Source of the DNA: a virus | Taxonomy: Duplodnaviria; Heunggongvirae; Uroviricota; Caudoviricetes | Direction: 5' to 3' (one strand) | DNA: 64,000 bases | IMG/VR virus record: IMGVR_UViG_3300022555_000011 | Span: 83,381 to 147,380 of that record | Shown: piece after piece, positions 2,802 to 54,677 of the stretch | Layout: the number at the start of each line of letters is the position of its first letter | Numbering within the stretch: the first letter of the stretch is position 1 | Notes under the pieces: model-generated | What the model was told of the DNA's origin: nothing | Seen by the model: only the letters and a program-made list of their open reading frames with translations | Database searches by the model: none | Translations under genes and position numbers: made by a program

Positions 2802-3503
2802 ATGGAGAAAATATGTAGAATTTGTGGAAAGCCAAAAAATATAGAAGAATTTCATAAGAAAAAAGATACTCCAGATGGACATAGAAATGAGTGTAAAGAG
2901 TGTGTAAAAGGCATTCAAAAAAAATATAAAGAAGTTCCTGGATTTAAAGAAAAACAAAAAGAATATGATCAGAATTATTATTCTGAAAATAGATTAAAAT
3001 TATTGGAAAATAAAAAAGAATATCATAAAGAAAATAGAGACAAAATTCTTGTTCAAAAAGAACAATATAGAAATGATCCAAATAATGTTGATAAGATTAA
3101 AGATTATTTGAAAAATTATAGACTTGAAAATAAAGATAAATCAAAAGAATGGAGACAAAATAATAGACCTATATTAGCAAAAAATCAAGAAAATTATAGA
3201 TTAAATAATCCTCATATAGTTGCCTGGAGAAGTTTGCTTTATTCAACTTTAAAAAGGCTTGGTACTAAAAAACAAGGTCACACTATAGATATGTTAGGAT
3301 ATTCAGCATTACAACTAAAAGAACACATAGAAATCCAATTTTTGCCTGGAATGACTTGGGAAAATCACGGTGAGTGGCACATAGATCATGTAAGACCAGT
3401 GACTAATTTTCCAACAACAGAGGATGTTAAAATTGTTTGTGCATTAGAAAATTTACAACCTTTATGGGGATTTGATAATTTGTCAAAATCAAGTAGATAT
3501 TAA
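2802..3503 (+). CDS. HNH homing endonuclease with N-terminal CxxC zinc ribbon (paralog of 43568..44335)
   Basis: CRICGK...CKEC; WHIDHVRPV...NLQPLW..N HNH motif. Confidence 0.7.
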   Translation: MEKICRICGKPKNIEEFHKKKDTPDGHRNECKECVKGIQKKYKEVPGFKEKQKEYDQNYYSENRLKLLENKKEYHKENRDKILVQKEQYRNDPNNVDKIKDYLKNYRLENKDKSKEWRQNNRPILAKNQENYRLNNPHIVAWRSLLYSTLKRLGTKKQGHTIDMLGYSALQLKEHIEIQFLPGMTWENHGEWHIDHVRPVTNFPTTEDVKIVCALENLQPLWGFDNLSKSSRY

Positions 3504-7183: not shown

Positions 7184-8092
7184 ATGAGTAGGAGATTGAC
7201 AACTGAGCAATTTATAGAAAAATCAAATGAAGTTCATAATAATAAATATGATTATAGCCTGGTTTGTTATAAAAATAATTTTACTAAGGTAAAAATTATA
7301 TGTCCTGAACATGGAGTGTTCGAACAAAGACCAAGTGGTCATATTTATTTAGAACAAGGCTGTCCTATATGTTATGGAAATAAAAAAATAACAAGAGATG
7401 AGTTTATAAAAAGTGCAATTGATATACATGATGATAAATATGATTATAGTTTAGTTGATTATAAAAACAATTTCACTAAAGTAAAAATAATATGTCCAGT
7501 TCATGGTATATTTGAACAAAAACCAAATAATCATATAATACAAAAACGTGGTTGTTTAAGATGTTCAGGTAAAAATTTGAAAACTACAGAAGAGTTTATA
7601 TTATTTGCTAAAAATATTCACGGAGATTTATATGATTATAGTTTAGTAAATTATAGTAATAGCCTTACAAATGTTAAGATTATATGTAAAAAACATGGTG
7701 TATTTGAACAACGACCAGATTCTCATATTTGCAGAAGTCATGGTTGTCCAATATGTAAAAATAGTAAAGGTGAGCAAATTATAATTAATGCATTGAATGA
7801 TAATAATTTTTCATTTGTTAGACAGAAGGAATTTTTGGAATGTAAGGATAAAAAAGCTTTACCATTTGACTTTTATTTACCAAGCCAAAATTTGTGTATA
7901 GAATACGATGGATTACAACACTTTGAACCAGTTGAATTTTGGGGTGGTATTGAAAATTTAGAATATGTCAAAAAGCACGATCAAATTAAAACTAATTATT
8001 GTAGAGATAATGATATTAAATTAATTAGAATTAAGTATAATAGGAAATTAAGTTCTATTGATATTTTAGAAAAAATATATAATTATGATTAA
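7184..8092 (+). CDS. homing-endonuclease-like protein: three zinc-ribbon repeats plus C-terminal PD-(D/E)xK-like nuclease domain
   Basis: 3x KYDYSLV.Y.NNFTKVKIICP.HG.FEQ.P..H...GCP.C; C-term IEYDGLQHF...K. Confidence 0.45.
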   Translation: MSRRLTTEQFIEKSNEVHNNKYDYSLVCYKNNFTKVKIICPEHGVFEQRPSGHIYLEQGCPICYGNKKITRDEFIKSAIDIHDDKYDYSLVDYKNNFTKVKIICPVHGIFEQKPNNHIIQKRGCLRCSGKNLKTTEEFILFAKNIHGDLYDYSLVNYSNSLTNVKIICKKHGVFEQRPDSHICRSHGCPICKNSKGEQIIINALNDNNFSFVRQKEFLECKDKKALPFDFYLPSQNLCIEYDGLQHFEPVEFWGGIENLEYVKKHDQIKTNYCRDNDIKLIRIKYNRKLSSIDILEKIYNYD

Positions 8093-16091: not shown

Positions 16092-16117
16092 TATATAGTT
16101 TAATTAGTTATCAAAAA

Positions 16118-16148
16118 AACCTGAGTTGTCAACCAACTCAGGTTTTTT
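16118..16148 (+). terminator. intrinsic terminator before tRNA array
   Basis: ACCTGAGTTGTCAACCAACTCAGGTTTTTTG. Confidence 0.65.
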
Positions 16149-16164: not shown

Positions 16165-16254
16165 CTAATAGTGGAGGAGTCAGGTTTACCTCGCTTGATT
16201 TGGGATCAAGAGGCAACGAAAGTTCATACGTGGGTTCGAATCCCACCTATTAGA
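16165..16254 (+). tRNA. tRNA-Pro(TGG)-like with class-II-like 19-nt variable arm
   Basis: acceptor CTAATAG/CTATTAG, anticodon arm CTTGA-TTTGGGA-TCAAG, T-arm GTGGG-TTCGAAT-CCCAC, discriminator A. Confidence 0.5.
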
Positions 16255-16316
16255 CAAGCTAGACTGTTAGAATTTCATAGACCGTTCAGAAAACGGAAGC
16301 TTAGAAATTCAGTTAT

Positions 16317-16391
16317 CGGGGTGTACTGCAGCTGGTTATACTACGGTGTTCTGGAAACATCGGTCCGCAGGTTCGAATCCTGTCACCCCGA
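16317..16391 (+). tRNA. tRNA-like, isotype uncertain (anticodon loop TCTGGAA, poor D-stem)
   Basis: perfect 7-bp acceptor CGGGGTG/CACCCCG, T-arm GCAGG-TTCGAAT-CCTGT. Confidence 0.35.
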
Positions 16392-16399
16392 CAAAAAAT

Positions 16400-16478
16400 G
16401 GTCCTGTATTGGCTCCGCCTTCTAAGCGAGATGTGCATAATGGAAATGAAAATGTGGGTTCGAGTCCCACCTGGATCA
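16400..16478 (+). tRNA. tRNA-like element A (paralog of 20881..20959), non-canonical interior
   Basis: T-arm GTGGG-TTCGAGT-CCCAC, acceptor GGTCCTG/CTGGATC with one T:T mismatch. Confidence 0.3.
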
Positions 16479-17158: not shown

Positions 17159-17842
17159 ATGAAATGGATAAAAGAATTAGATGAAAAAATAATAAATTTG
17201 GTTAAAAATGGCAAATCTTATAATGAAATTTCAGATGAAATTAATATGTCACCAAATTCTATTAGAAATAGATGTTTTAGATTAAATATAAAAAGTAGTA
17301 GTTATAAGAAAGATAAGACAAAAAAATTTTATTGTGTAGAATGCAATAAAGAATTTATTGATAATAAAGATAAAAATAGAAAATTTTGTAGTAATAGTTG
17401 TTCTGCAATATTTAATAATAAAACAATAACTAGAAAAAAAGTTACAGAAATTAAATTATGTTTAAATTGTAAATGTGAACTAGTTAATAAAAATAGTAAA
17501 TATTGTTCACAAAAATGTCAAATAGAATTTCAAACTGATAATCTTATAGAAAAATGGAAAAATGGTGAAATTGATGGTAACACTGGTATTAATAAAGAAG
17601 GTTTGTCTGTAACAATACGCAAATATATTATTAAAAAATATAACAATAAATGTTCAGTGTGTGGTTGGAATGAAGTTAATATTTTTACAGGTGTTGTCCC
17701 ATTAGAGGTTGACCATATTGATGGTAATCATTTAAATAGTAAAGAAGAAAATTTAAGACCTCTTTGTCCATCTTGTCATTCATTAACTGAATTTTATGGT
17801 GGTAGAAATAAAGGTAGAGGAAGAAAATATAGAAGAAAATAA
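17159..17842 (+). CDS. HNH homing endonuclease with tandem N-terminal zinc ribbons
   Basis: C..C...FCSNSCSAIFNN x2; EVDHIDGNHLN...LRPLCPSCHS. Confidence 0.7.
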   Translation: MKWIKELDEKIINLVKNGKSYNEISDEINMSPNSIRNRCFRLNIKSSSYKKDKTKKFYCVECNKEFIDNKDKNRKFCSNSCSAIFNNKTITRKKVTEIKLCLNCKCELVNKNSKYCSQKCQIEFQTDNLIEKWKNGEIDGNTGINKEGLSVTIRKYIIKKYNNKCSVCGWNEVNIFTGVVPLEVDHIDGNHLNSKEENLRPLCPSCHSLTEFYGGRNKGRGRKYRRK

Positions 17843-17844
17843 TT

Positions 17845-17930
17845 GCGAGAGTCGCATAGTGGTCGATTGCGCCAGCCTTCCAAGCTGGAAAGATAATATC
17901 ACACCGAGGGTTCGAATCCCTTTTCTCGCT
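17845..17930 (+). tRNA. tRNA-Gly(TCC) with class-II-like architecture (3-bp D-stem, about 16-nt variable arm)
   Basis: GCGAGAG acceptor, D-arm GCA-TAGTGGTCGAT-TGC, anticodon arm CCAGC-CTTCCAA-GCTGG (as in E. coli Gly-UCC), discriminator T. Confidence 0.5.
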
Positions 17931-17936
17931 CGTTTT

Positions 17937-18024
17937 GCAGTAATCTCCTAGTGGCCGATGGAACTGGGTTGCCAATCCAGTTAGTGAAAGCGCATCGTGG
18001 GTTCGAATCCCACTTACTGCTCCA
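17937..18024 (+). tRNA. tRNA-Gly(GCC) with class-II-like architecture, CCA encoded
   Basis: GCAGTAA/TTACTGC acceptor, D-arm TCC-TAGTGGCCGAT-GGA, anticodon arm CTGGG-TTGCCAA-TCCAG, 16-nt variable region, T-arm GTGGG-TTCGAAT-CCCAC, T-CCA. Confidence 0.55.
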
Positions 18025-18310: not shown

Positions 18311-19210
18311 TTGACTTCAACTTTTTTTATATATAGTAATAAAATATGTATGGAAAATATGGAAAATAAAAAATGTCTTAATTGTGGTTGTTCACTAACA
18401 TATGAAAAAAGAAATAATAAATTTTGTGGAAGTTCATGTGCCGCTATTTTTAATAATAAAAATAGAAAAGGTAAATATGTTTATAATTTAAGTGAAACTG
18501 GATTAAATAACATTATTGAATCTAATAAAATTAATTTTCTTAAAAAAAGAAAACCTAAATTGTGCAAAAATTGTCAAAGTCCTTTTTATAACGAAAAAGG
18601 TGAAAAATTAAATTTTTGTTCTGATGATTGTAAAAAAGAATATAAAAAAGAAATTAAAGTTATTTCTGATGAAACTAAACAAAAGTTATCTAGTTCTTTG
18701 AAAAATTTTTATAAAACAGATGAAGGTGAAATAAATAAACAGAAATTAAGTTTATTATATATTGGAAAAATTTTTTCTGATGAATCTAAATTAAAATTAA
18801 GTATATCTGCTAAAAATAGATGTGAAGATATTAATGAAAGAATAAGATTGAGAGAAATCGGTAGAAAAGGAGGATTTGGTAAGAGTGGCTATACTATTAA
18901 TGGTATTTATTATCAGAGTACTTTTGAAAAAAAATGTTTTGAGTTTTTAGAAGAAAATAAAATAGAGTTTGAACCTCATAAGAGTTTGCCAGATTCTAGC
19001 AAAATATGTGATATATATTTTTCAGATAAAAATATATGGATTGAATTGGATGGAATTAATAGAGAAAAAAGAAAAAAATGGTTAAGTAAAGAATATAATT
19101 ATTGGTTAGATAAATTGAATGAATATAAAGAAAAAAAATTAGATTTTAAAATTTTTTATAATTATAATGAATTTATAGATTTTTTAAATACAAATGTCCC
19201 CATCGCTTAG
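18311..19210 (+). CDS. homing endonuclease: N-terminal zinc ribbon plus PD-(D/E)xK-like domain
   Basis: CLNCGCS...FCGSSCAAIFNN; ICDIYFSDKNIWIELDGINREK; stop TAG lies in downstream tRNA. Confidence 0.6.
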   Translation: MTSTFFIYSNKICMENMENKKCLNCGCSLTYEKRNNKFCGSSCAAIFNNKNRKGKYVYNLSETGLNNIIESNKINFLKKRKPKLCKNCQSPFYNEKGEKLNFCSDDCKKEYKKEIKVISDETKQKLSSSLKNFYKTDEGEINKQKLSLLYIGKIFSDESKLKLSISAKNRCEDINERIRLREIGRKGGFGKSGYTINGIYYQSTFEKKCFEFLEENKIEFEPHKSLPDSSKICDIYFSDKNIWIELDGINREKRKKWLSKEYNYWLDKLNEYKEKKLDFKIFYNYNEFIDFLNTNVPIA

Positions 19211-19623: not shown

Positions 19624-19703
19624 CGAGGTTTTGGGGAGTCAGGTCACCCCGCCACATTTGGGATGTGGAGCAATTATCGCAGGTTCGAATCCTGCAACCT
19701 CGA
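19624..19703 (+). tRNA. tRNA-Pro(TGG) with 10-nt variable region
   Basis: CGAGGTT/AACCTCG acceptor, D-arm GGGG-AGTCAGGTCA-CCCC, anticodon arm CCACA-TTTGGGA-TGTGG, T-arm GCAGG-TTCGAAT-CCTGC, discriminator A. Confidence 0.55.
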
Positions 19704-19758: not shown

Positions 19759-20598
19759 ATGAATAATTATTTAGGATCAAAAGAGCATAAAGACAATGCA
19801 AGAAATTCAATTTTATTAGGATTAAAAAAATTAAAAGAATTAAAGGTAGAAAGAATTAAAAAATATTATTCCGAGCCATCTTTTTGTTTATGTTGTGATA
19901 AAGTATTAAGTTATGAAAAGAAGAATAATAAATTTTGCTCTAGTTCATGCTCTGCAAGTTATAATAATAAAGGACGAATAGTATCAGATGAGCAAAAAAA
20001 GAAAGTAAGTTTAAGTTTATCTGGCATTAAAAGAAACGAAAAATTAAGCGAAAATATTAAGGAACATAAAAGAATATGTTCATATTGCAAAAAAGAGTTC
20101 ATAGTATGGAGACTTAATAACAATACTTTATCACATAGTAAGCATTGTAGTTCTGGTTGTACTAATTCCAGTATGAAAGAAAAAGTTAGTTTGATAATAA
20201 AAGAAAAAGTTAAGAATGGAACACATAAAGGCTGGCAAAGTAGAAATATTGAAAGTTATCCAGAGAAATTTTTTAAGATAGTTTTAGAAAATAATGGGAT
20301 AAAATATAAATTCAATAAAGTTATTTCAAAAAGAAGTTTAGGTTTAGATTGTGATGCTAATTATTTTTTAGATTTTTATCTGAAAGATAAAAATATAGAT
20401 TTAGAAATAGATGGAAAGCAACATAATTATGAGGATAGAATAGAAAATGATGAATTAAGAGATTTTACATTGATAAAAAATGGATTTATAGTGTATAGAA
20501 TAAAGTGGAAAGAAATACAAACAAATGACGGTAAAAATTACATAAAAAATGAAATTGATAAGTTTTTAGAATTTTATAATAATGCCTTCTTCGCATAG
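19759..20598 (+). CDS. homing endonuclease: N-terminal zinc ribbon plus PD-(D/E)xK-like domain
   Basis: CLCCDK...FCSSSCSASYNN; LDFYLKDKNIDLEIDGKQH; stop TAG lies in downstream tRNA. Confidence 0.6.
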   Translation: MNNYLGSKEHKDNARNSILLGLKKLKELKVERIKKYYSEPSFCLCCDKVLSYEKKNNKFCSSSCSASYNNKGRIVSDEQKKKVSLSLSGIKRNEKLSENIKEHKRICSYCKKEFIVWRLNNNTLSHSKHCSSGCTNSSMKEKVSLIIKEKVKNGTHKGWQSRNIESYPEKFFKIVLENNGIKYKFNKVISKRSLGLDCDANYFLDFYLKDKNIDLEIDGKQHNYEDRIENDELRDFTLIKNGFIVYRIKWKEIQTNDGKNYIKNEIDKFLEFYNNAFFA

Positions 20599-20668
20599 CG
20601 GTCGATTGCACCTGACTTGTAATCAGGATCTGAATTAAGACACGTCGGTTCGAATCCGACAGAAGGCT
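20584..20668 (+). tRNA. tRNA with Thr(TGT) anticodon and class-II architecture (16-nt variable arm)
   Basis: perfect stems: GCCTTCT/AGAAGGC, D-arm GCA-TAGCGGTCGAT-TGC, CCTGA-CTTGTAA-TCAGG, GTCGG-TTCGAAT-CCGAC. Confidence 0.5.
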
Positions 20669-20753: not shown

Positions 20754-20825
20754 GCAGAAGAAGCTCATTAGGTCGAGTAGGAGATTTCAATCTTCAGGTA
20801 GCGAGTTCGAATCTCGTCTTCTGCT
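20754..20825 (+). tRNA. tRNA-like with irregular anticodon arm (loop TTTCAA(T); TCA or TTC?)
   Basis: perfect acceptor GCAGAAG/CTTCTGC, D-arm GCTC-ATTAGGTC-GAGT, T-arm GCGAG-TTCGAAT-CTCGT. Confidence 0.35.
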
Positions 20826-20880: not shown

Positions 20881-20959
20881 GCACCTGTAATGGCGGAGTT
20901 TCCTAAACTCTATGTGCATAACGGAATGAAAAATGTGGGTTCGAATCCCATCTGGTGCC
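20881..20959 (+). tRNA. tRNA-like element B (paralog of 16400..16478)
   Basis: T-arm GTGGG-TTCGAAT-CCCAT, acceptor GCACCTG/CTGGTGC with T:T mismatch at same position as element A. Confidence 0.3.
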
Positions 20960-49489: not shown

Positions 49490-50830
49490 ATTTATATTAT
49501 ATTTTTATTATATATAAATTTTTAATTTTAATTTTTACAATATGTTATTATATATAGTTCTGTAATTTCTTACATTCTTTTCCTAATTCTATGACTGAAC
49601 TAATGTTCTGGTCTTCAAAGGCGTTAATTTGGGTGAACTCAACCCTATTTTTAAAATTCGTTTTCCTTCATTTTCAATATTCTTTGCGGCATTAAAATCT
49701 CTATCGTGATTTGAACCACATTTTGGACAAATCCAATTGCGATCATTTAATGTTAAATCATCTTTCTTATATCCACAATTAGAACATAATTTACTTGAAG
49801 GAAACCATCTATCTATTTCAATTATATCTCTACCATACCAACTTGCTTTATATTTTAATATTTCTTTAAATCTATATAAACTTAATTCATTTATTGATTT
49901 TGCTAAACAATGATTTTTAATCATTCCTTTAACATTTAAATTTTCTATTACTATAACTTGGTTTTCGTTAAGTAATTTATTTGTAATCGAATGTAGATAG
50001 TATTCTTTTTTATTATTTAATTTTTCGTAAAATCTTGCTAATTTAATTCTTGACTTTTCTTTATTCTTGCTATTATTTTCTTTTCTTGAATGCAATTGAT
50101 GAAGTTTTTTTAACTTATCTTCATTATTTCTTCTAATCTTGATATTATCAAAATTAATTCCATCAGAACCAACAATGAAAGTTTTTATACCAACATCAAT
50201 TCCAATTACTTTATTAGTATTTGGTAATTTTTTATTATTATCTCTATCAATTAAAATAGATAAATAATATTTATTTGATCTTGTTTTTGTTAGTGTTATT
50301 GATTTTATCTTTTTTTGATTTTTATTAATAAATTTTTCATCATTTTTTGAACATTTATAATGAATACAATTTAACGACCTAGTTAAATTTATCATATTGC
50401 CTGTTATTCCAATAATAGCATCACTAGGAAATCTACAAGATTGTTTGTTGTCTTTTTTTGATTTAAATTTTGGAAATCCATAATCATTTTTGAAAAATGA
50501 TTTATATGCGCTTTCTAGATTTATGAGTGTTTGTTGAATAACTTTAGAATGACTATCTCTAATCCAAATATACTCAGTTTTTAGTGATGTTAGATATTTT
50601 CCAACTTCCCCAAACGAAGTAGATTTTTTATTTTCATTATATTCATTTATTTTATATGATAAGCAATTATTATAAACAAATCTACAAGTACCCAGCATCT
50701 TATTTATATAAGATTGCTGATTTTCGTTTGGATAAATTTTTATTTTAATTGCCTTTAACATAAGTATAATAATTTTATACTCTATATATAAATAAAATAA
50801 AGTCATATTTTTCTATTTTTGTAACTTTCT
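49490..50830 (-). mobile_element. tnpB-only IS200/IS605-like element (ends not defined)
   Basis: TnpB ORF; no tnpA seen. Confidence 0.3.
49589..50806 (-). CDS. tnpB: TnpB (IS200/IS605 OrfB) RuvC-like nuclease with C-terminal zinc finger
   Basis: N-term IKIKIYPNENQQSYINKMLGTCRFVYNNCL; GIDVGIK; CSNCGYKK...CPKCGSNHDRDFNAAKNI. Confidence 0.75.
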   Translation of the reverse strand: MTLFYLYIEYKIIILMLKAIKIKIYPNENQQSYINKMLGTCRFVYNNCLSYKINEYNENKKSTSFGEVGKYLTSLKTEYIWIRDSHSKVIQQTLINLESAYKSFFKNDYGFPKFKSKKDNKQSCRFPSDAIIGITGNMINLTRSLNCIHYKCSKNDEKFINKNQKKIKSITLTKTRSNKYYLSILIDRDNNKKLPNTNKVIGIDVGIKTFIVGSDGINFDNIKIRRNNEDKLKKLHQLHSRKENNSKNKEKSRIKLARFYEKLNNKKEYYLHSITNKLLNENQVIVIENLNVKGMIKNHCLAKSINELSLYRFKEILKYKASWYGRDIIEIDRWFPSSKLCSNCGYKKDDLTLNDRNWICPKCGSNHDRDFNAAKNIENEGKRILKIGLSSPKLTPLKTRTLVQS

Positions 50831-52998: not shown

Positions 52999-54243
52999 TT
53001 GAAATTAACTGAAAGACATATAATAACAAAATATCATCCTAACTTTAAAGAGTGTGATGATTTATGTTTTAAATCAAAAAATATCTATAACAGGTCACTA
53101 TATCTAATCAAAGAAGACTTGAAAGACAATAAATATGATGTTCTTAATAAATTATTTAATTATATGAAATCAGAAGATTGTTTTAAGGAATTACCTATGA
53201 AAGTTGCGACAGCAACCACAATTCAGGTTCAAAAAATATATAAATCATTCTTTAAATCAATGATATATTATGGTAAAAATCCTACAAAATATAAAAGTAG
53301 GCCAGAACAACCAAGGTTTTTAAGCAAAGAAAAGGGTAGATTTATAATATCGTATAATTATCAAGCAATATCAAAAAAAGTATTTAAGGCAGCAAACAAG
53401 ATCAAACTATCAGGAACAAATATTGAATTTACTACCAAATTAAAAGATTTTGAAACAATTGATTGTGTTAGAATTATACCAAGATTAAATCAGTATATTA
53501 TTGAAGTGTGCTATACTTTTAATGAAAGATCACAGGTTAGAGACAATAAAAGATATGGTTCTATTGATTTAGGTGTAAGCAATTTAGCAACATTCACATC
53601 AAGTATTAAAGGATTTCAACCATTAATTTTTAATGGAAAACCATTAAAATCAATAAATCAGTATTATAATAAAAAAATGGCTTTAATGAAGTCAAAACTT
53701 GAGTTAGTAAATAAGAAAAAATCAAGTAAAAAATTAAGGTTATTAACAAATAAAAGAAACAATAAGGTAGATAATTATTTACATAAAGCAAGCAAAGAAA
53801 TAGTTAAAACTTTAGTTGCTAATAATATGTCAAAATTAGTTATTGGTAAAAATGATGGTTGGAAGTTTGAAACCAAAATGTCAAAGCAATCTAATCAAAA
53901 TTTTATTCAGATACCACATAGTAGATTTATACAAATGATCCAGTATAAATGCGAAAAAGAGGGTATTCGTGTTATCGTTCAAGAAGAAAGTTATACCAGT
54001 AAAGCATCTTTCTTGAATTTAGATGTTATGCCAATTTACGATAAGAATAATGATACCATGCACATATTTAGTGGATATCGTAAATCAAGAGGTTTATATA
54101 AAGTTAAGTCCGATGGACGGTCTATCAATGCTGATATAAATGGTAGTTATAACATATTAAGAAAAGCAATTCCAAATGTTTTTTCAAATGGAATAGAGGG
54201 TTTTGTAGTTAACCCAAAAGTTATTAAATTAACTTTAAACTAA
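52999..54243 (+). CDS. tnpB: TnpB-like RuvC nuclease lacking the C-terminal CxxC zinc finger
   Basis: IDLGVSNLATF, ESYTSKAS, NADINGSYNILRKA. Confidence 0.65.
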   Translation: MKLTERHIITKYHPNFKECDDLCFKSKNIYNRSLYLIKEDLKDNKYDVLNKLFNYMKSEDCFKELPMKVATATTIQVQKIYKSFFKSMIYYGKNPTKYKSRPEQPRFLSKEKGRFIISYNYQAISKKVFKAANKIKLSGTNIEFTTKLKDFETIDCVRIIPRLNQYIIEVCYTFNERSQVRDNKRYGSIDLGVSNLATFTSSIKGFQPLIFNGKPLKSINQYYNKKMALMKSKLELVNKKKSSKKLRLLTNKRNNKVDNYLHKASKEIVKTLVANNMSKLVIGKNDGWKFETKMSKQSNQNFIQIPHSRFIQMIQYKCEKEGIRVIVQEESYTSKASFLNLDVMPIYDKNNDTMHIFSGYRKSRGLYKVKSDGRSINADINGSYNILRKAIPNVFSNGIEGFVVNPKVIKLTLN

Positions 54244-54279: not shown

Positions 54280-54500
54280 TCTTTGAAAATTTGGGGGTGC
54301 ATGTTTTGACAGTAATGTAGAATGAGGTTATCAGCAAGTATCGCATTGTCTAGAGTGGCGATTAATAAATTAGTGGGTATAAACAATAAATGGCGAAGCA
54401 CATACGCATATCGTTACTTCTAAATCAACAATCGCAGTTGCTGGAACTGTAGTTGAGACCGAAGTTTCTGTAGCCTAAACAGGAAAACCAGAACATTCTT
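54280..54500 (+). ncRNA. candidate TnpB-associated omega-RNA / structured ncRNA
   Basis: 470-bp ORF-free, GC-richer region directly 3' of tnpB; hairpin GGGGAG-TCGTA-TCCCC; terminator at 54678. Confidence 0.3.
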
Positions 54501-54677
54501 TTTCGTAAACGATTTTGAGATTATCATAAATGGTTAGAGGATTTAATAATTACCTTTTCAAAATTATTTATTTTTGTTTGTTTTAGAAAAAATAAAATAA
54601 ACTTGTAGAAGATGCCAAAAGGCGTTATTGGACGGGGAGTCGTATCCCCCACCTCCACATCTGATAATCAGATAGTT

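What the first reader, a model, noticed from the sequence alone, without database searches (positions are those of the whole stretch)
16165..16254. tRNA-Pro(TGG) with a 19-nt variable region, plus a second Pro(TGG) copy that differs by compensatory stem changes
The gene at 16165..16254 has the Pro anticodon arm CTTGA-TTTGGGA-TCAAG, discriminator A, and a 19-nt insert AGGCAACGAAAGTTCATAC between the anticodon and T arms. Part of the insert can form an AAC-GAAA-GTT hairpin. A second Pro(TGG) at 19624..19703 keeps the same D-loop (AGTCAGGT) and anticodon loop. All of its stems are changed in a compensatory way, and its variable region is 10 nt. Two isoacceptor copies that differ in stems and V-region length suggest functional diversification, not a sequencing artefact.
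Basis: seen in the sequence. Interest (0 to 1): 0.6.

Follow-up and report, generated by a model that had tools for sequence, protein, structure and literature searches.

The report
Phage proline tRNAs with extra arm
A giant-phage genome carries three genes for the same proline tRNA. One has a small conserved hairpin where ordinary proline tRNAs have a five-base loop, and this extra arm turns up in many phage tRNAs, almost never in bacterial genomes, with a purpose still unknown.

Summary
Both ARAGORN and Rfam call tRNA-Pro(UGG) genes at 16165-16254 (53.4 bits, 19-nt variable region) and 19624-19703 (53.5 bits, 10-nt variable region).

The window comes from a ~27% GC huge phage related to Lak and Mahaphage. 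Five relatives from other metagenomes keep the 19-nt region, and two of the three AAC-GAAA-GUU pairs change on both sides. It is therefore a real class-II-style variable arm on a class-I tRNA, not an artefact or intron.

Copies 1 and 2 are only 65% identical, and each has closer relatives in other phages. They are old, separate lineages, not recent duplicates.

The feature is widespread. I found 35 distinct long-arm Pro(UGG) genes in viral contigs, plus Thr, Gly, Lys, Gln, Asn and Cys examples, mostly capped by GNRA or UUCG tetraloops. The same scan of 185,579 species genomes gave 3 among its first 120 matches. Cultured phages phiCbK and RsoM2USA carry such tRNAs.

I found no paper describing this. 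Pro identity elements are intact.

The arm's role is inferred. The most likely roles are a steric shield against tRNA-targeting host enzymes (~0.4) or an inert, tolerated expansion (~0.3).

The parts
16165..16254 (+). tRNA-Pro(UGG) copy 1, positions 1-73. It is a class-I body with a 19-nt variable region, and no CCA is encoded.
   Evidence: ARAGORN. Rfam RF00005 53.4 bits. Across 6 relatives 100% of stem cells are paired and 11 of 24 pairs change on both sides.
16201..16203 (+). Anticodon TGG within the loop TTTGGGA (16199-16205), giving U33, G35, G36, G37.
   Evidence: Sequence. CCA makes up 65% and CCT 31% of Pro codons in the window's ORFs.
16211..16229 (+). Variable region AGGCAACGAAAGTTCATAC.
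   Evidence: Sequence. The Rfam alignment places it as an insertion between the anticodon and T arms.
16213..16225 (+). Variable-arm mini-helix. A possible G:C base pair (16213:16225) and a bulged C (16214) precede 3 bp AAC/GTT (16215-16217 with 16222-16224), capped by a GAAA tetraloop (16218-16221).
   Evidence: Two of the three inner pairs covary (AU:4/GC:2 and AU:5/UA:1). A distant clade (L041, L045) has the same layout with different sequence. The G:C pair and the bulge are invariant, so they are inferred only.
19624..19703 (+). tRNA-Pro(UGG) copy 2, from a separate lineage. Its variable region AGCAATTATC (19669-19678) has no predicted hairpin.
   Evidence: ARAGORN. Rfam 53.5 bits. Its MFE is a cloverleaf, z -2.73. 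Nearest relatives are L046, L004 and L042.
16317..16391 (+). tRNA-Pro(UGG) copy 3. It has a 5-nt variable loop, the anticodon loop UCUGGAA (C33, A37) and a D arm the covariance model cannot align.
   Evidence: ARAGORN. Rfam 30.4 bits against a gathering score of 29, with a local end across the D arm. Homologues occur in L007, L039 and L276.
16114..16148 (+). Terminator-like hairpin and T-run ending 16 nt upstream of copy 1.
   Evidence: Scan. A comparable hairpin sits upstream of the L007 homologue.
17845..17930 (+). tRNA-Gly(UCC) with a 17-nt variable region, in the same array.
   Evidence: ARAGORN. Rfam 55.2 bits. V region listed.
17937..18021 (+). tRNA-Gly(GCC) with a 16-nt variable region TTAGTGAAAGCGCATC (GU-GAAA-GC).
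   Evidence: ARAGORN. Rfam 50.7 bits. V region listed.
20584..20668 (+). tRNA-Thr(UGU) with a 16-nt variable region ATCTGAATTAAGACAC (TCT...AGA).
   Evidence: Rfam 57.6 bits. Relatives carry TCC-GAAA-GGA (L127, L049) and GGGC-TTCG-GCCC (Mahaphage, L149).

Best explanation
Shown (about 0.9). 16165-16254 is a genuine tRNA-Pro(UGG) gene of a Lak/Mahaphage-like huge phage. A class-I cloverleaf carries a class-II-style variable arm. After A44-G45 comes a small helix (probable G:C, one bulged C, three Watson-Crick pairs) capped by a GAAA tetraloop, then AUAC ending in C48 opposite G15. The arm is maintained by selection. The features that mark a bacterial tRNA-Pro are intact: G35, G36, G37, A73, and here C1:G72. 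It should therefore be charged with proline and read CCA/CCU, the phage's main Pro codons.

19624-19703 is a second Pro(UGG) gene from a different old lineage. Its 10-nt variable region looks like a shortened arm (compare RGC-loop-GC-AUC in its relatives). 16317-16391 is a third lineage. The array is a mosaic interrupted by homing-endonuclease-like ORFs.

The arm is one instance of a phage-wide habit of adding short tetraloop-capped variable arms to tRNAs that in cells have 4-5-nt variable loops.

Inferred (about 0.4). The arm does not change decoding or identity. It changes the surface of the anticodon/D-stem side of the molecule. This makes the phage tRNA a poor substrate for host tRNA-directed nucleases or toxins that dock there, while synthetase, EF-Tu and ribosome still accept it, as they accept Leu, Ser and Tyr tRNAs. 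Keeping several structurally different Pro(UGG) genes would then spread the risk.
For: - Gene calls and scores.
- Phage context: about 27% GC; similarity to LR756501 and Lak; lysozyme, collagen-repeat protein and other phage-type genes.
- Covariation: six relatives, 100% of cells paired, 11 of 24 pairs changed on both sides, including 2 of 3 in the variable hairpin; slid controls give 30-49% pairing.
- A distant clade (L041 TCT-GAAA-AGA, L045 TCC-GCAA-GGA) has the same G...C plus bulge plus 3 bp plus GNRA layout.
- Breadth: 35 distinct long-arm Pro(UGG) genes in IMG/VR loci. In 23 of those loci it is the only Pro(UGG) found, including arrays of 18-26 tRNAs.
- Tetraloops: 32 of 56 unique long variable regions in class-I isotypes have a GNRA or UUCG tetraloop closed by at least 2 pairs. 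Shuffles give a mean of 2.6 and a maximum of 8 in 1000.
- Frequency: in 36 loci chosen without regard to V length, 11 of 296 unique class-I-isotype tRNAs are 82 nt or longer.
- Cellular genomes: the D-loop-specific pattern gave 0 hits.
- Identity: A73 in 34 of 36 long-arm and 41 of 44 normal phage Pro tRNAs; C1:G72 or A1:U72 in both groups.
- Codon match.
- Separate lineages.
- Homing-endonuclease-like ORFs inside the array: HNH E 3.9e-6, DUF559 E 4.9e-8.
- Correlated core change: A9 is 27% in long-arm tRNAs against 63% in normal ones, and C9 occurs in 6 of 7 long-arm Thr against 3 of 49 normal Thr.
- Precedents from papers: phage tRNAs escape anticodon nucleases through structural changes (PMC10264068, PMC11464382, PMC11555353); a longer variable arm blocks PylRS by steric clash (PMC10810272).
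Against: - No expression, charging or nuclease data exist for any of these tRNAs.
- The hairpin is energetically marginal in the window's own sequence, and the MFE of copy 1 is not a cloverleaf.
- Only 6 close sequences support the covariation, and they are related, so the shuffle control overstates significance.
- Most phage tRNAs, including most in this array, lack the arm, so it cannot be a general requirement.
- Covariation shows that the hairpin forms, not that it is useful. An inert insert would also have to stay self-contained.
- Known tRNA-targeting defences mostly read the anticodon loop or the acceptor stem (PMC10264068, PMC11559606), not the variable side.
- One toxin (MenT3) and human SLFN11 actually prefer long-arm tRNAs (PMC11541572; reference list of PMC13056530).
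Confidence: 0.45

Rival explanations
1. Inert expansion segment. The variable loop is the one place where a tRNA tolerates insertions. Small insertions arose by slippage or recombination in fast-evolving phage arrays. They persist only when they fold into a compact, self-contained tetraloop hairpin that does not disturb the core. The arm has no function of its own.
For: - Arm sequences and lengths vary widely, 12-22 nt.
- Copy 2 and its relatives (L046, L143) have unstructured or decayed versions.
- Arms are gained and lost between close paralogues: in L038 the V region is AGCAT against the 19-mer.
- C(GNRA)G hairpins are simply the most stable small hairpins (established RNA thermodynamics).
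- The hairpin is worth only -0.8 kcal/mol in the window.
Against: - The same 19-mer is conserved while the acceptor and anticodon stems around it change (L065 against the window).
- Arms recur in many isotypes and in unrelated phages (27% GC megaphage, 66% GC phiCbK) yet are nearly absent from cellular genomes, which face the same mutational opportunity.
- Position 9 shifts together with the arm.
Confidence: 0.3
2. Positive handle or fold stabiliser. The arm is recognised by a phage-encoded partner (synthetase, modification or processing enzyme, protective protein). Or it stiffens the core of tRNAs made quickly and under-modified during infection.
For: - Huge phages encode synthetases and tRNA-modification enzymes (PMC7162821).
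- Class-II synthetases (Pro, Thr, Gly, Lys, Asn, Asp) approach tRNA from the variable-loop side (textbook knowledge).
- GNRA loops are common protein and RNA docking sites (general knowledge).
- The position-9 shift suggests the arm is integrated into the core.
Against: - No tRNA enzyme or synthetase was found among the 28 larger ORFs scanned in the 64-kb window.
- The affected isotypes span both synthetase classes.
- Arm sequences are not conserved between lineages, as a specific binding site would be.
- The phiCbK genome paper, as far as I searched its tRNA passages, mentions no tRNA-specific factor (PMC3556154).
Confidence: 0.17
3. Identity switch. The long arm plus A73 makes the tRNA a substrate for LeuRS (or SerRS), so CCN codons are partly read as Leu or Ser. 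This would resemble the nematode V-arm tRNAs that are charged with leucine.
For: - nev-tRNAs with Gly or Ile anticodons are leucylated (PMC3333845).
- A73 and arm orientation matter for Aquifex LeuRS (PMC2377443).
- Copy 1 has A73 and a variable arm.
Against: - The body is a tRNA-Pro body (C1:G72, G35, G36, G37, G15:C48, 4-bp D stem) and derives from normal-loop Pro tRNAs (76% identity to the L038 normal copy).
- Normal and long-arm phage Pro tRNAs share the same 1:72 and 73 pattern.
- The long-arm Gly and Thr tRNAs keep U73 and G1:C72/C2:G71, the Gly and Thr sets.
- The arm has 3-4 bp and there is no G73, which is too little for SerRS (PMC7609411).
- In 23 of 35 loci it is the only Pro(UGG) found.
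Confidence: 0.03
4. Pseudogene, assembly artefact, intron or mobile insertion. The extra 14 nt are an error, a spliced element like the Lak 'tRNA introns', or a decaying gene.
For: - Lak phages have tRNAs with enigmatic inserts (PMC6784885).
- The array does contain degenerate members: a 6-nt anticodon loop at 20754-20825 and sub-threshold tRNA-like genes.
Against: - The same insert is found in independent metagenomes, with compensatory changes.
- The score is 53 bits.
- The anticodon stem is intact, so the insert lies in the variable region and not at 37/38 where tRNA introns sit.
- A 3-bp hairpin has no bulge-helix-bulge motif and no room for a group I core (inference from the sequence).
Confidence: 0.03

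Closest known systems
Class II (type II) tRNAs: bacterial tRNA-Leu, tRNA-Ser, tRNA-Tyr (and Sec)
   Same: The variable region exceeds 10 nt and forms a stem-loop between positions 45 and 48. The stem is at the short end of the 3-7 bp range. Leu, Ser and Tyr tRNAs in the same phage loci also use GNRA caps (11 of 28). G9 is enriched, as in class II.
   Different: The isotype is Pro (and Gly, Thr, Lys, Gln, Asn and Cys elsewhere). The D arm is the 4-bp class-I type. The arm is not known to be an identity element. It is essentially confined to phages.
Noncanonical V-arm tRNAs of eukaryotes (nematode nev-tRNAs, PMC3333845; nov-tRNAs, Hamashima 2016, cited in PMC5389517)
   Same: A long variable arm is combined with an anticodon that is not Leu, Ser or Tyr.
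   Different: Those are Leu- or Ser-type bodies whose anticodon changed, and they are charged with Leu. Here a Pro-type body gained an arm and keeps the Pro identity elements. Those are eukaryotic nuclear genes and these are phage genes.
Phage tRNAs that escape tRNA-targeting defences (anticodon-loop variants, PMC10264068; T5 tRNA-Lys against PARIS, PMC11464382; T5 tRNA-Tyr against retron Eco7, PMC11555353)
   Same: They are redundant phage-encoded isoacceptors that differ structurally from host tRNAs. The proposed logic is the same: remain usable for translation but be unrecognisable to a nuclease.
   Different: The documented escape changes lie in the anticodon stem-loop or in expression level. 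A variable-arm addition has not been reported in the papers I could search. No nuclease is known for this phage or its host.
Variable-arm length as a steric anti-determinant for PylRS (PMC10810272)
   Same: It shows that lengthening the variable region can block one tRNA-binding protein by steric clash while translation continues.
   Different: That is an archaeal and engineered system with changes of 1-2 nt, not a 14-nt hairpin, and it has no link to phages.
Lak megaphage tRNAs 'with enigmatic introns' (PMC6784885)
   Same: The phage lineage is related and the tRNA genes are oversized.
   Different: Those inserts were predicted as anticodon-loop introns using the eukaryotic mode of tRNAscan. 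Here the anticodon arm is intact and the extra bases are in the variable region. The Lak-A1 Pro(UGG) in the homologous region is a normal 74-nt tRNA.

Membership tests
tRNA (Rfam RF00005) | Scores above the curated gathering threshold against the tRNA covariance model over its full length. | tested here: met
   Copy 1 scores 53.4 bits, copy 2 53.5 bits and copy 3 30.4 bits against a gathering score of 29, all over model positions 1-71.
tRNA (Rfam RF00005) | Cloverleaf with 7/4/5/5-bp stems and the conserved core bases U8, A14, G18-G19, U33 and the T-loop TTCRANY. | tested here: met
   Copies 1 and 2 have all stems Watson-Crick, plus T8, A14, G15, GG in the D-loop, U33 and TTCGAAT. Copy 3 fails on U33 (it has C33) and on the D arm.
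Bacterial-type tRNA-Pro | Anticodon G35-G36, G37 (the m1G site), discriminator A73 and C1:G72. These are the E. coli ProRS identity set, cited from my own knowledge of the identity literature. | tested here: met
   Copies 1 and 2 have UGG, G37, A73 and C1:G72. The nearest relatives of copy 1 have A1:U72 instead, as do 18 of 44 normal-loop phage Pro tRNAs.
Bacterial-type tRNA-Pro | Is aminoacylated with proline. | not testable with these tools
   This needs a charging assay or charged-tRNA sequencing.
Class II tRNA | Variable region longer than 10 nt with a helical stem of 3-7 bp (definition quoted in PMC11559606). | tested here: met
   Copy 1 has 19 nt, with a 3-bp stem supported by covariation and a possible fourth pair. 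Copy 2 has 10 nt with no stem, so it does not meet the feature.
Class II tRNA | Isotype is Leu, Ser or Tyr (bacteria), or Sec. | tested here: not met
   The anticodon is UGG and the body is Pro-type.
nev-/nov-tRNA (V-arm tRNA with a mismatched anticodon) | A Leu- or Ser-type body and identity set combined with a non-Leu/Ser anticodon. | tested here: not met
   The body is 76% identical to a normal-loop phage tRNA-Pro (L038:1610-1685). It has C1:G72, G15:C48 and a 4-bp D stem.
Intron-containing tRNA (as in Lak phages or archaea) | The insert interrupts the anticodon loop (37/38) or carries a bulge-helix-bulge motif, and is removed from the mature RNA. | tested here: not met
   The anticodon arm CTTGA-TTTGGGA-TCAAG is intact and the insert lies between the anticodon and T arms. 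No BHB motif can be drawn on a 3-bp hairpin. Removal itself was not testable.
tRNA pseudogene | Broken stems, a low model score, and no conservation beyond neutral expectation. | tested here: not met
   There are no broken pairs, the score is 53 bits, and compensatory changes occur across relatives.

The most novel reading that the evidence does not exclude
Phages systematically fit ordinary (class-I) tRNAs with a short tetraloop-capped variable arm, together with accompanying core changes such as at position 9. This would be a structural device that separates phage tRNAs from host tRNAs. It could block host tRNA-directed nucleases or toxins, or it could mark 'self' for phage factors. It would be a general layer of the phage-host conflict over tRNA that has not been described. 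The same arrays hold even more deviant adaptors: D-arm-less tRNA-Arg-like genes, C33 Pro tRNAs and Leu-anticodon tRNAs without the long arm. Huge phages would therefore be exploring tRNA architectures thought to be confined to organelles.
Probability: 0.3. Interest if true: 0.8.

Novelty: new variant of a known kind. Interest (0 to 1): 0.6.

Why it matters
Textbooks and tRNA-finding software assume that in bacteria and their viruses only Leu, Ser and Tyr (and Sec) tRNAs have a long variable arm. Here the rule is broken repeatedly, with evidence of selection, in phages from very different lineages and almost never in cellular genomes.

If the arm alters which proteins can dock on the tRNA, it adds a new kind of move to the current picture of phage tRNAs as counter-defence tools. 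So far that picture rests on anticodon-loop changes.

It also matters in practice. Such genes can be missed or mis-annotated. The RsoM2USA Pro gene lies under a 'hypothetical protein', and two D-arm-less tRNA-like genes here fall below Rfam's threshold.

Naturally tolerated arm insertions are also of interest for engineering orthogonal tRNAs. Two cultured phages, phiCbK and RsoM2USA, make the question experimentally approachable.

Tried and rejected
- Sequencing or assembly artefact: rejected. The same or covarying insert occurs in independent metagenomes.
- Intron: rejected. The anticodon arm is intact.
- Recent in-situ duplication of copies 1 and 2: rejected. They are 65% identical and each has nearer relatives elsewhere.
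- Leu or Ser mischarging: unlikely on identity elements.
- AT-rich tRNAs needing extra stability: rejected as a general cause, because arm-bearing tRNAs range from 44% to 63% GC.
- tRNA enzymes or synthetases in the window that might partner with the arm: none found among 28 larger ORFs.
- MFE folding as support for the hairpin: it gave none for the window sequence.
- BLAST of copy 1 against GenBank phages: no full-length relative. It did uncover phiCbK tRNA-Lys through its similar arm plus T arm.
- Cellulophaga phage hits to the long-arm Thr tRNA: these were a normal-length tRNA-Gly sharing only the D and anticodon arms.
- Lak-A1 homologous region: its Pro(UGG) is a normal 74-nt tRNA.
- Literature: nine full-text searches found no description of variable-arm-bearing class-I tRNAs in phages. 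This covers open-access papers and bioRxiv only.
- Alignment A2, made with a covariance model built from the six relatives (R1): the model matches all tRNAs, so I used A2 only to extract variable regions and not for pair statistics.
Full report
WHAT IS THERE

ARAGORN finds 17 tRNA genes on the + strand between 16165 and 20960. The Rfam tRNA model finds 16 of them above its gathering score, plus a tmRNA at 54293-54660.

The finding's two genes are both called. tRNA-Pro(UGG) at 16165-16254 scores 53.4 bits and the one at 19624-19703 scores 53.5 bits, against a gathering score of 29.

Read directly, copy 1 is CTAATAG-TG-GAGG-AGTCAGGTTTA-CCTC-G-CTTGA-TTTGGGA-TCAAG-[AGGCAACGAAAGTTCATAC]-GTGGG-TTCGAAT-CCCAC-CTATTAG-A. 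Copy 2 is CGAGGTT-TT-GGGG-AGTCAGGTCA-CCCC-G-CCACA-TTTGGGA-TGTGG-[AGCAATTATC]-GCAGG-TTCGAAT-CCTGC-AACCTCG-A.

It covers the anticodon arm, discriminator A, the 19-nt and 10-nt variable regions, the shared AGTCAGGT in the D-loop, and stems that differ only by double changes (11 of 21 pairs by my count).

There are three corrections:
- The D-loops differ in length (11 vs 10 nt).
- There is a third Pro(UGG) at 16317-16391, at 30.4 bits.
- Nearest-neighbour energies do not favour the AAC-GAAA-GUU hairpin. It has 0 kcal/mol on its own and adds -0.8 kcal/mol inside the cloverleaf, and the unconstrained MFE of copy 1 is not a cloverleaf.

CONTEXT

The window is about 27% GC. Parts of the tRNA region are 66-68% identical at the DNA level to the 735-kb huge phage LR756501 and to Prevotella Lak phages. 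It encodes a phage lysozyme, a collagen-repeat protein, a DNA methyltransferase, two TnpB-like proteins and others.

ORFs with HNH (E 3.9e-6), DUF559 (E 4.9e-8) and weak NUMOD3 matches sit between the tRNA genes. From my own knowledge, homing endonucleases inside tRNA clusters are familiar from T4 and T5.

CCA is 65% and CCT 31% of Pro codons in the window's ORFs. A UGG anticodon therefore fits the phage's own demand.

IS THE LONG VARIABLE REGION REAL AND STRUCTURED?

I scanned public collections for GAGTCAGGT...TTTGGGA...GGTTCGAATCC. In viral contigs, 36 of 37 matches had a normal-length spacing and one (L007) had the long form. The metagenome scan restricted to long forms gave eight loci.

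Five distinct relatives share copy 1's D and T arms, and four of them also its anticodon arm; L065 has covarying changes there. Their variable regions are:
- AGGCAACGAAAGTTCATAC (L038, L043, L065; identical to the window, with different acceptor stems)
- AGGCGACGAAAGTCCGAAC (L007)
- AGGCGACGAAAGTCCATAC (L044)
- AGGCATCGAAAGATCACAC (L039)

On the six-sequence alignment A1, every stem cell is a standard pair. Eleven of 24 pairs change on both sides, including two of the three hairpin pairs (A:U to G:C, and A:U to U:A). Sliding the partners by 1-3 columns drops pairing to 30-49%.

A more distant clade has different sequence but the same layout of G...C, one bulged base, three pairs and a GNRA loop: L041 AGTTCTGAAAAGACATTC and L045 CGTTCCGCAAGGACATC.

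The extra bases lie after an intact anticodon stem, so this is a variable arm and not an anticodon-loop intron of the kind reported for Lak phages (PMC6784885).

RELATION OF THE COPIES

Over 71 core columns, copies 1 and 2 are 65% identical. Copy 1 is 90-94% identical to the tRNAs of L039, L044, L007 and L038. Copy 2 is closest to tRNAs of other phages: L046 84%, L004 81%, L042 77%.

They are old, separate lineages brought together in one array, not a recently diverged pair.

Relatives of copy 2 have variable regions such as AGCTAATAAATAACGCATC, AGCCTAATAAGCATC and AGCGCAAGCATC. Copy 2's AGCAATTATC looks like a shortened arm; this is inference.

Copy 3 has the anticodon loop UCUGGAA (C33, A37) and a D arm the model skips. 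Its homologues in L007 and L276 also have C33, while L039 has U33.

A WIDER PATTERN

A looser scan of viral contigs (TTTGGGA, 18-34 nt, GGTTCGAATCC) returned 105 loci. ARAGORN on all loci fetched up to that point (1174 tRNAs) gave 43 Pro tRNAs of 82 nt or more, of which 35 are distinct. They come from contigs of many sizes, and the tRNAs range from 44% to 63% GC.

Their variable regions are nearly all short hairpins. Examples are TGA-GAAA-TCA, GAC-GGAA-GTC, GCC-GTAA-GGC, GTG-TTCG-CAC and GCG-GAAA-CGC.

The same loci contain long-arm Thr(UGU), Gly(UCC), Gln, Asn, Cys, Asp, Trp, Val and Met tRNAs.

Of 56 unique long variable regions in class-I isotypes, 32 have a GNRA or UUCG tetraloop closed by at least two pairs. 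Composition-preserving shuffles give a mean of 2.6 and a maximum of 8 in 1000. Leu, Ser and Tyr tRNAs of the same loci show 11 of 28.

In the 36 loci that had been selected through a normal-loop Pro tRNA, 11 of 296 unique class-I-isotype tRNAs are 82 nt or longer, about 3-4%. A few of these may be mis-typed class-II bodies.

In 23 of the 35 distinct loci the long-arm gene is the only Pro(UGG) in the fetched stretch, including arrays of 18-26 tRNAs. In 12 loci it sits beside a normal-loop Pro(UGG).

In this window, Gly(UCC) 17845-17930, Gly(GCC) 17937-18021 and Thr(UGU) 20584-20668 also have 16-17-nt variable regions.

CELLULAR GENOMES

The D-loop-specific pattern found nothing in one genome from each of 185,579 species. 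One of them lies in an 8.9-kb contig with 20 tRNAs that looks viral.

The rest are chance matches or, in some archaeal MAGs, what look by eye like Pro tRNAs with ordinary anticodon-loop introns. About 300 chance matches are expected in 596 Gb; that is my arithmetic.

Because the scan was truncated, this is a proportion and not a census. It does indicate strong enrichment in phages.

CULTURED EXAMPLES

BLAST of copy 1 against GenBank phages hit the 3' half of a tRNA-Lys of Caulobacter phage phiCbK, because the arm plus T arm are similar. phiCbK tRNA-Lys(CUU) has the variable region CAGCGAAAGCTCATC and tRNA-Lys(UUU) has TAGGCGTCCGCGCCTCACC. Both are annotated as tRNA-Lys of 88 and 91 nt. The genome paper does not comment on them (PMC3556154).

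The 635-kb phage LR745206 has one normal and three long-arm tRNA-Lys genes.

Ralstonia jumbo phage RsoM2USA has a Pro(UGG) with the variable region AGCATTAAATTGCATC. It is not annotated in its record, where the site lies under a 'hypothetical protein'.

IDENTITY

Copy 1 has G35, G36, G37, A73 and C1:G72, and G15 opposite C48. Across phage Pro tRNAs, A73 occurs in 34 of 36 long-arm and 41 of 44 normal genes. The 1:72 pair is C:G or A:U in both groups.

The long-arm Gly and Thr genes keep U73 with G1:C72 and C2:G71. Nothing points to a change of amino acid. This separates these genes from nematode nev-tRNAs, which are Leu-type bodies with foreign anticodons (PMC3333845).

One correlated change was seen. 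Position 9 is A in 27% of long-arm class-I-isotype tRNAs against 63% of normal ones. C9 is found in 6 of 7 long-arm Thr against 3 of 49 normal Thr. The sequences are related, so the p-values are only indicative. It hints that the arm is integrated with the tertiary core.

HOW IT MOST LIKELY WORKS

Shown: this is a well-formed tRNA-Pro gene with a selected variable-arm hairpin, and it is one case of a phage-wide feature.

Inferred: it decodes CCA/CCU as proline, and the arm changes the protein-accessible surface on the anticodon/D-stem side.

I favour a steric shield against host tRNA-directed enzymes, at about 0.4, for three reasons:
- Phage tRNAs are now known to rescue infection from tRNA-cleaving defences by being structurally different (PMC10264068, PMC11464382, PMC11555353).
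- Variable-arm length can exclude a tRNA-binding protein by clash (PMC10810272).
- The feature is phage-specific, independent of isotype, and often coexists with a normal copy.

Four points count against it:
- Known defences mainly read the anticodon loop or acceptor stem (PMC11559606).
- Some toxins prefer long-arm tRNAs (PMC11541572).
- Most phage tRNAs lack the arm.
- There are no experimental data.

The main rival, at about 0.3, is an inert insertion that survives only when it folds into a compact hairpin. A handle for a phage factor or a fold stabiliser comes third, at about 0.17.

NOVELTY

Nine full-text searches and targeted reading found no description of variable-arm-bearing class-I tRNAs in phages. 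The library lacks most subscription journals, so prior mention cannot be excluded.

I rate it a new variant of a known kind.

BY-PRODUCTS

Two paralogous tRNA-Arg-like genes, 16400-16478 (anticodon UCU) and 20881-20959 (anticodon CCU), have no D arm. A 5-nt connector replaces it, and an invariant 23-nt segment, AUGUGCAUAAYGGAA(A)UGAAAA(A)U, precedes a normal T arm.

They score 25.8 and 27.1 bits, below the gathering score. Homologues occur in four viral contigs. The acceptor and anticodon stems covary: 92.6% of cells are paired and 7 of 17 pairs change on both sides.

Other items are listed under 'noticed in passing'.

Noticed in passing
window 16400-16478 and 20881-20959 (+); homologues L276:8140-8240, L277:95-200, L278:6455-6560, L279 (- strand): Two paralogous tRNA-Arg-like genes (anticodons UCU and CCU) lack a D arm. 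They have a 7-bp acceptor stem, UA, a 5-nt connector NUGGC, an anticodon arm, an invariant 23-nt segment AUGUGCAUAAYGGAA(A)UGAAAA(A)U, and a normal T arm. They score below Rfam's gathering score (25.8 and 27.1 bits). ARAGORN misses one and misfolds the other. The acceptor and anticodon stems covary across 4 sequences (92.6% paired, 7 of 17 pairs changed on both sides). RNAfold pairs the connector with GUGCAU, which would extend the anticodon helix. D-arm-less tRNAs are otherwise known from animal mitochondria.
   Followed up: partly
window 16317-16391 (+); L007:1159-1233(-), L007:1078-1152(-), L276:4773-4848: The third tRNA-Pro(UGG) has C33 instead of the near-universal U33, A37 instead of G37, and a D arm the covariance model cannot align (30.4 bits). 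C33 is conserved in the L007 and L276 homologues and in the L007 Pro(CGG), while the L039 homologue has U33. This may be an anticodon-loop escape variant.
   Followed up: partly
window 17845-17930, 17937-18021, 20584-20668 (+): Gly(UCC), Gly(GCC) and Thr(UGU) in the same array also have 16-17-nt variable regions. The Thr arm covaries with relatives (TCT...AGA here, TCC-GAAA-GGA in L127 and L049, GGGC-TTCG-GCCC in Mahaphage LR756501). The long-arm Gly(UCC), Thr and Trp tRNAs, here and in relatives, share the D arm TC-GCAT-AGYGG..GA-TTGC with C9; the window's Gly(GCC) has C9 but a different D stem (TCCT/GGAA).
   Followed up: partly
window 20754-20825 (+); L276:7937-8011: A well-scoring tRNA (47.5 bits) has a 6-nt anticodon loop, UUUCAA. 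Its L276 homologue has the normal 7-nt loop UUUCCAA (Gly UCC). The window copy therefore has a one-base deletion in the anticodon, from a CC homopolymer error, a pseudogene, or a real 6-nt-loop tRNA.
   Followed up: partly
window 16255-16316 (+); L038:1692-1793(-), L043:277-378, L046:879-1042(-): The spacer after copy 1 holds the motif GTTAGAATTTCATAG...TAGAAATTCA, with a 7-bp outer stem GAATTTC/GAAATTC around an inner hairpin (MFE -12.0, z -1.95). The motif recurs, twice per locus, only in tRNA spacers of related phages, and once in this window. Its role is unknown; it could be a processing signal, a small RNA or a protein site.
   Followed up: partly
window 17159-17842, 18311-19210, 19759-20598 (+): Homing-endonuclease-like ORFs are interspersed among the tRNA genes: HNH plus Myb/HTH, a weak NUMOD3/zinc-ribbon match, and DUF559 (Vsr-like). 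The DUF559 ORF is the part most similar to Lak phages. They may drive the mosaic make-up of the array.
   Followed up: partly
L270 (phiCbK NC_019405) 2959-3045 and 3052-3142; L271 (LR745206) 7778-8043; L275 (RsoM2USA MG752970) 2995-3083: Cultured phages carry variable-arm class-I tRNAs. phiCbK has tRNA-Lys(CUU) with an AGC-GAAA-GCU arm and tRNA-Lys(UUU). A 635-kb phage has one normal and three long-arm tRNA-Lys genes. RsoM2USA has a Pro(UGG) with a 16-nt arm that is not annotated in its GenBank record.
   Followed up: partly
L045:653-727(-), L045:6316-6389(-); L267 (Leu gag, 74 nt): tRNAs with Leu anticodons (UAG, CAA, GAG) are only 74-75 nt long, so they lack the long variable arm that bacterial tRNA-Leu always has. 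The isotype is from the anticodon only and I did not check the folds.
   Followed up: no
window 54293-54660 (+), next to 52999-54243 (+): Rfam calls a tmRNA (53.8 bits against a gathering score of 47, with a poorly aligned middle). ARAGORN does not report one. It starts 50 nt after a TnpB-like ORF (OrfB_IS605 plus the Cas12f1-like TNB domain). A second TnpB-like ORF lies at 49589-50806 (-).
   Followed up: no
L169:1186-1273 (alphaproteobacterial MAG, 1.2-Mb contig): A chromosomal tRNA has a Pro UGG anticodon, a 3-bp D stem, G1:C72 and a 6-bp variable arm. It is a class-II-like body with a Pro anticodon, unlike the phage type.
   Followed up: no
window 16114-16148 (+): A strong terminator-like hairpin (15 pairs plus a T-run) ends 16 nt upstream of the first tRNA of the array. 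A similar arrangement occurs in L007. No convincing sigma-70 promoter lies between it and the tRNA.
   Followed up: no
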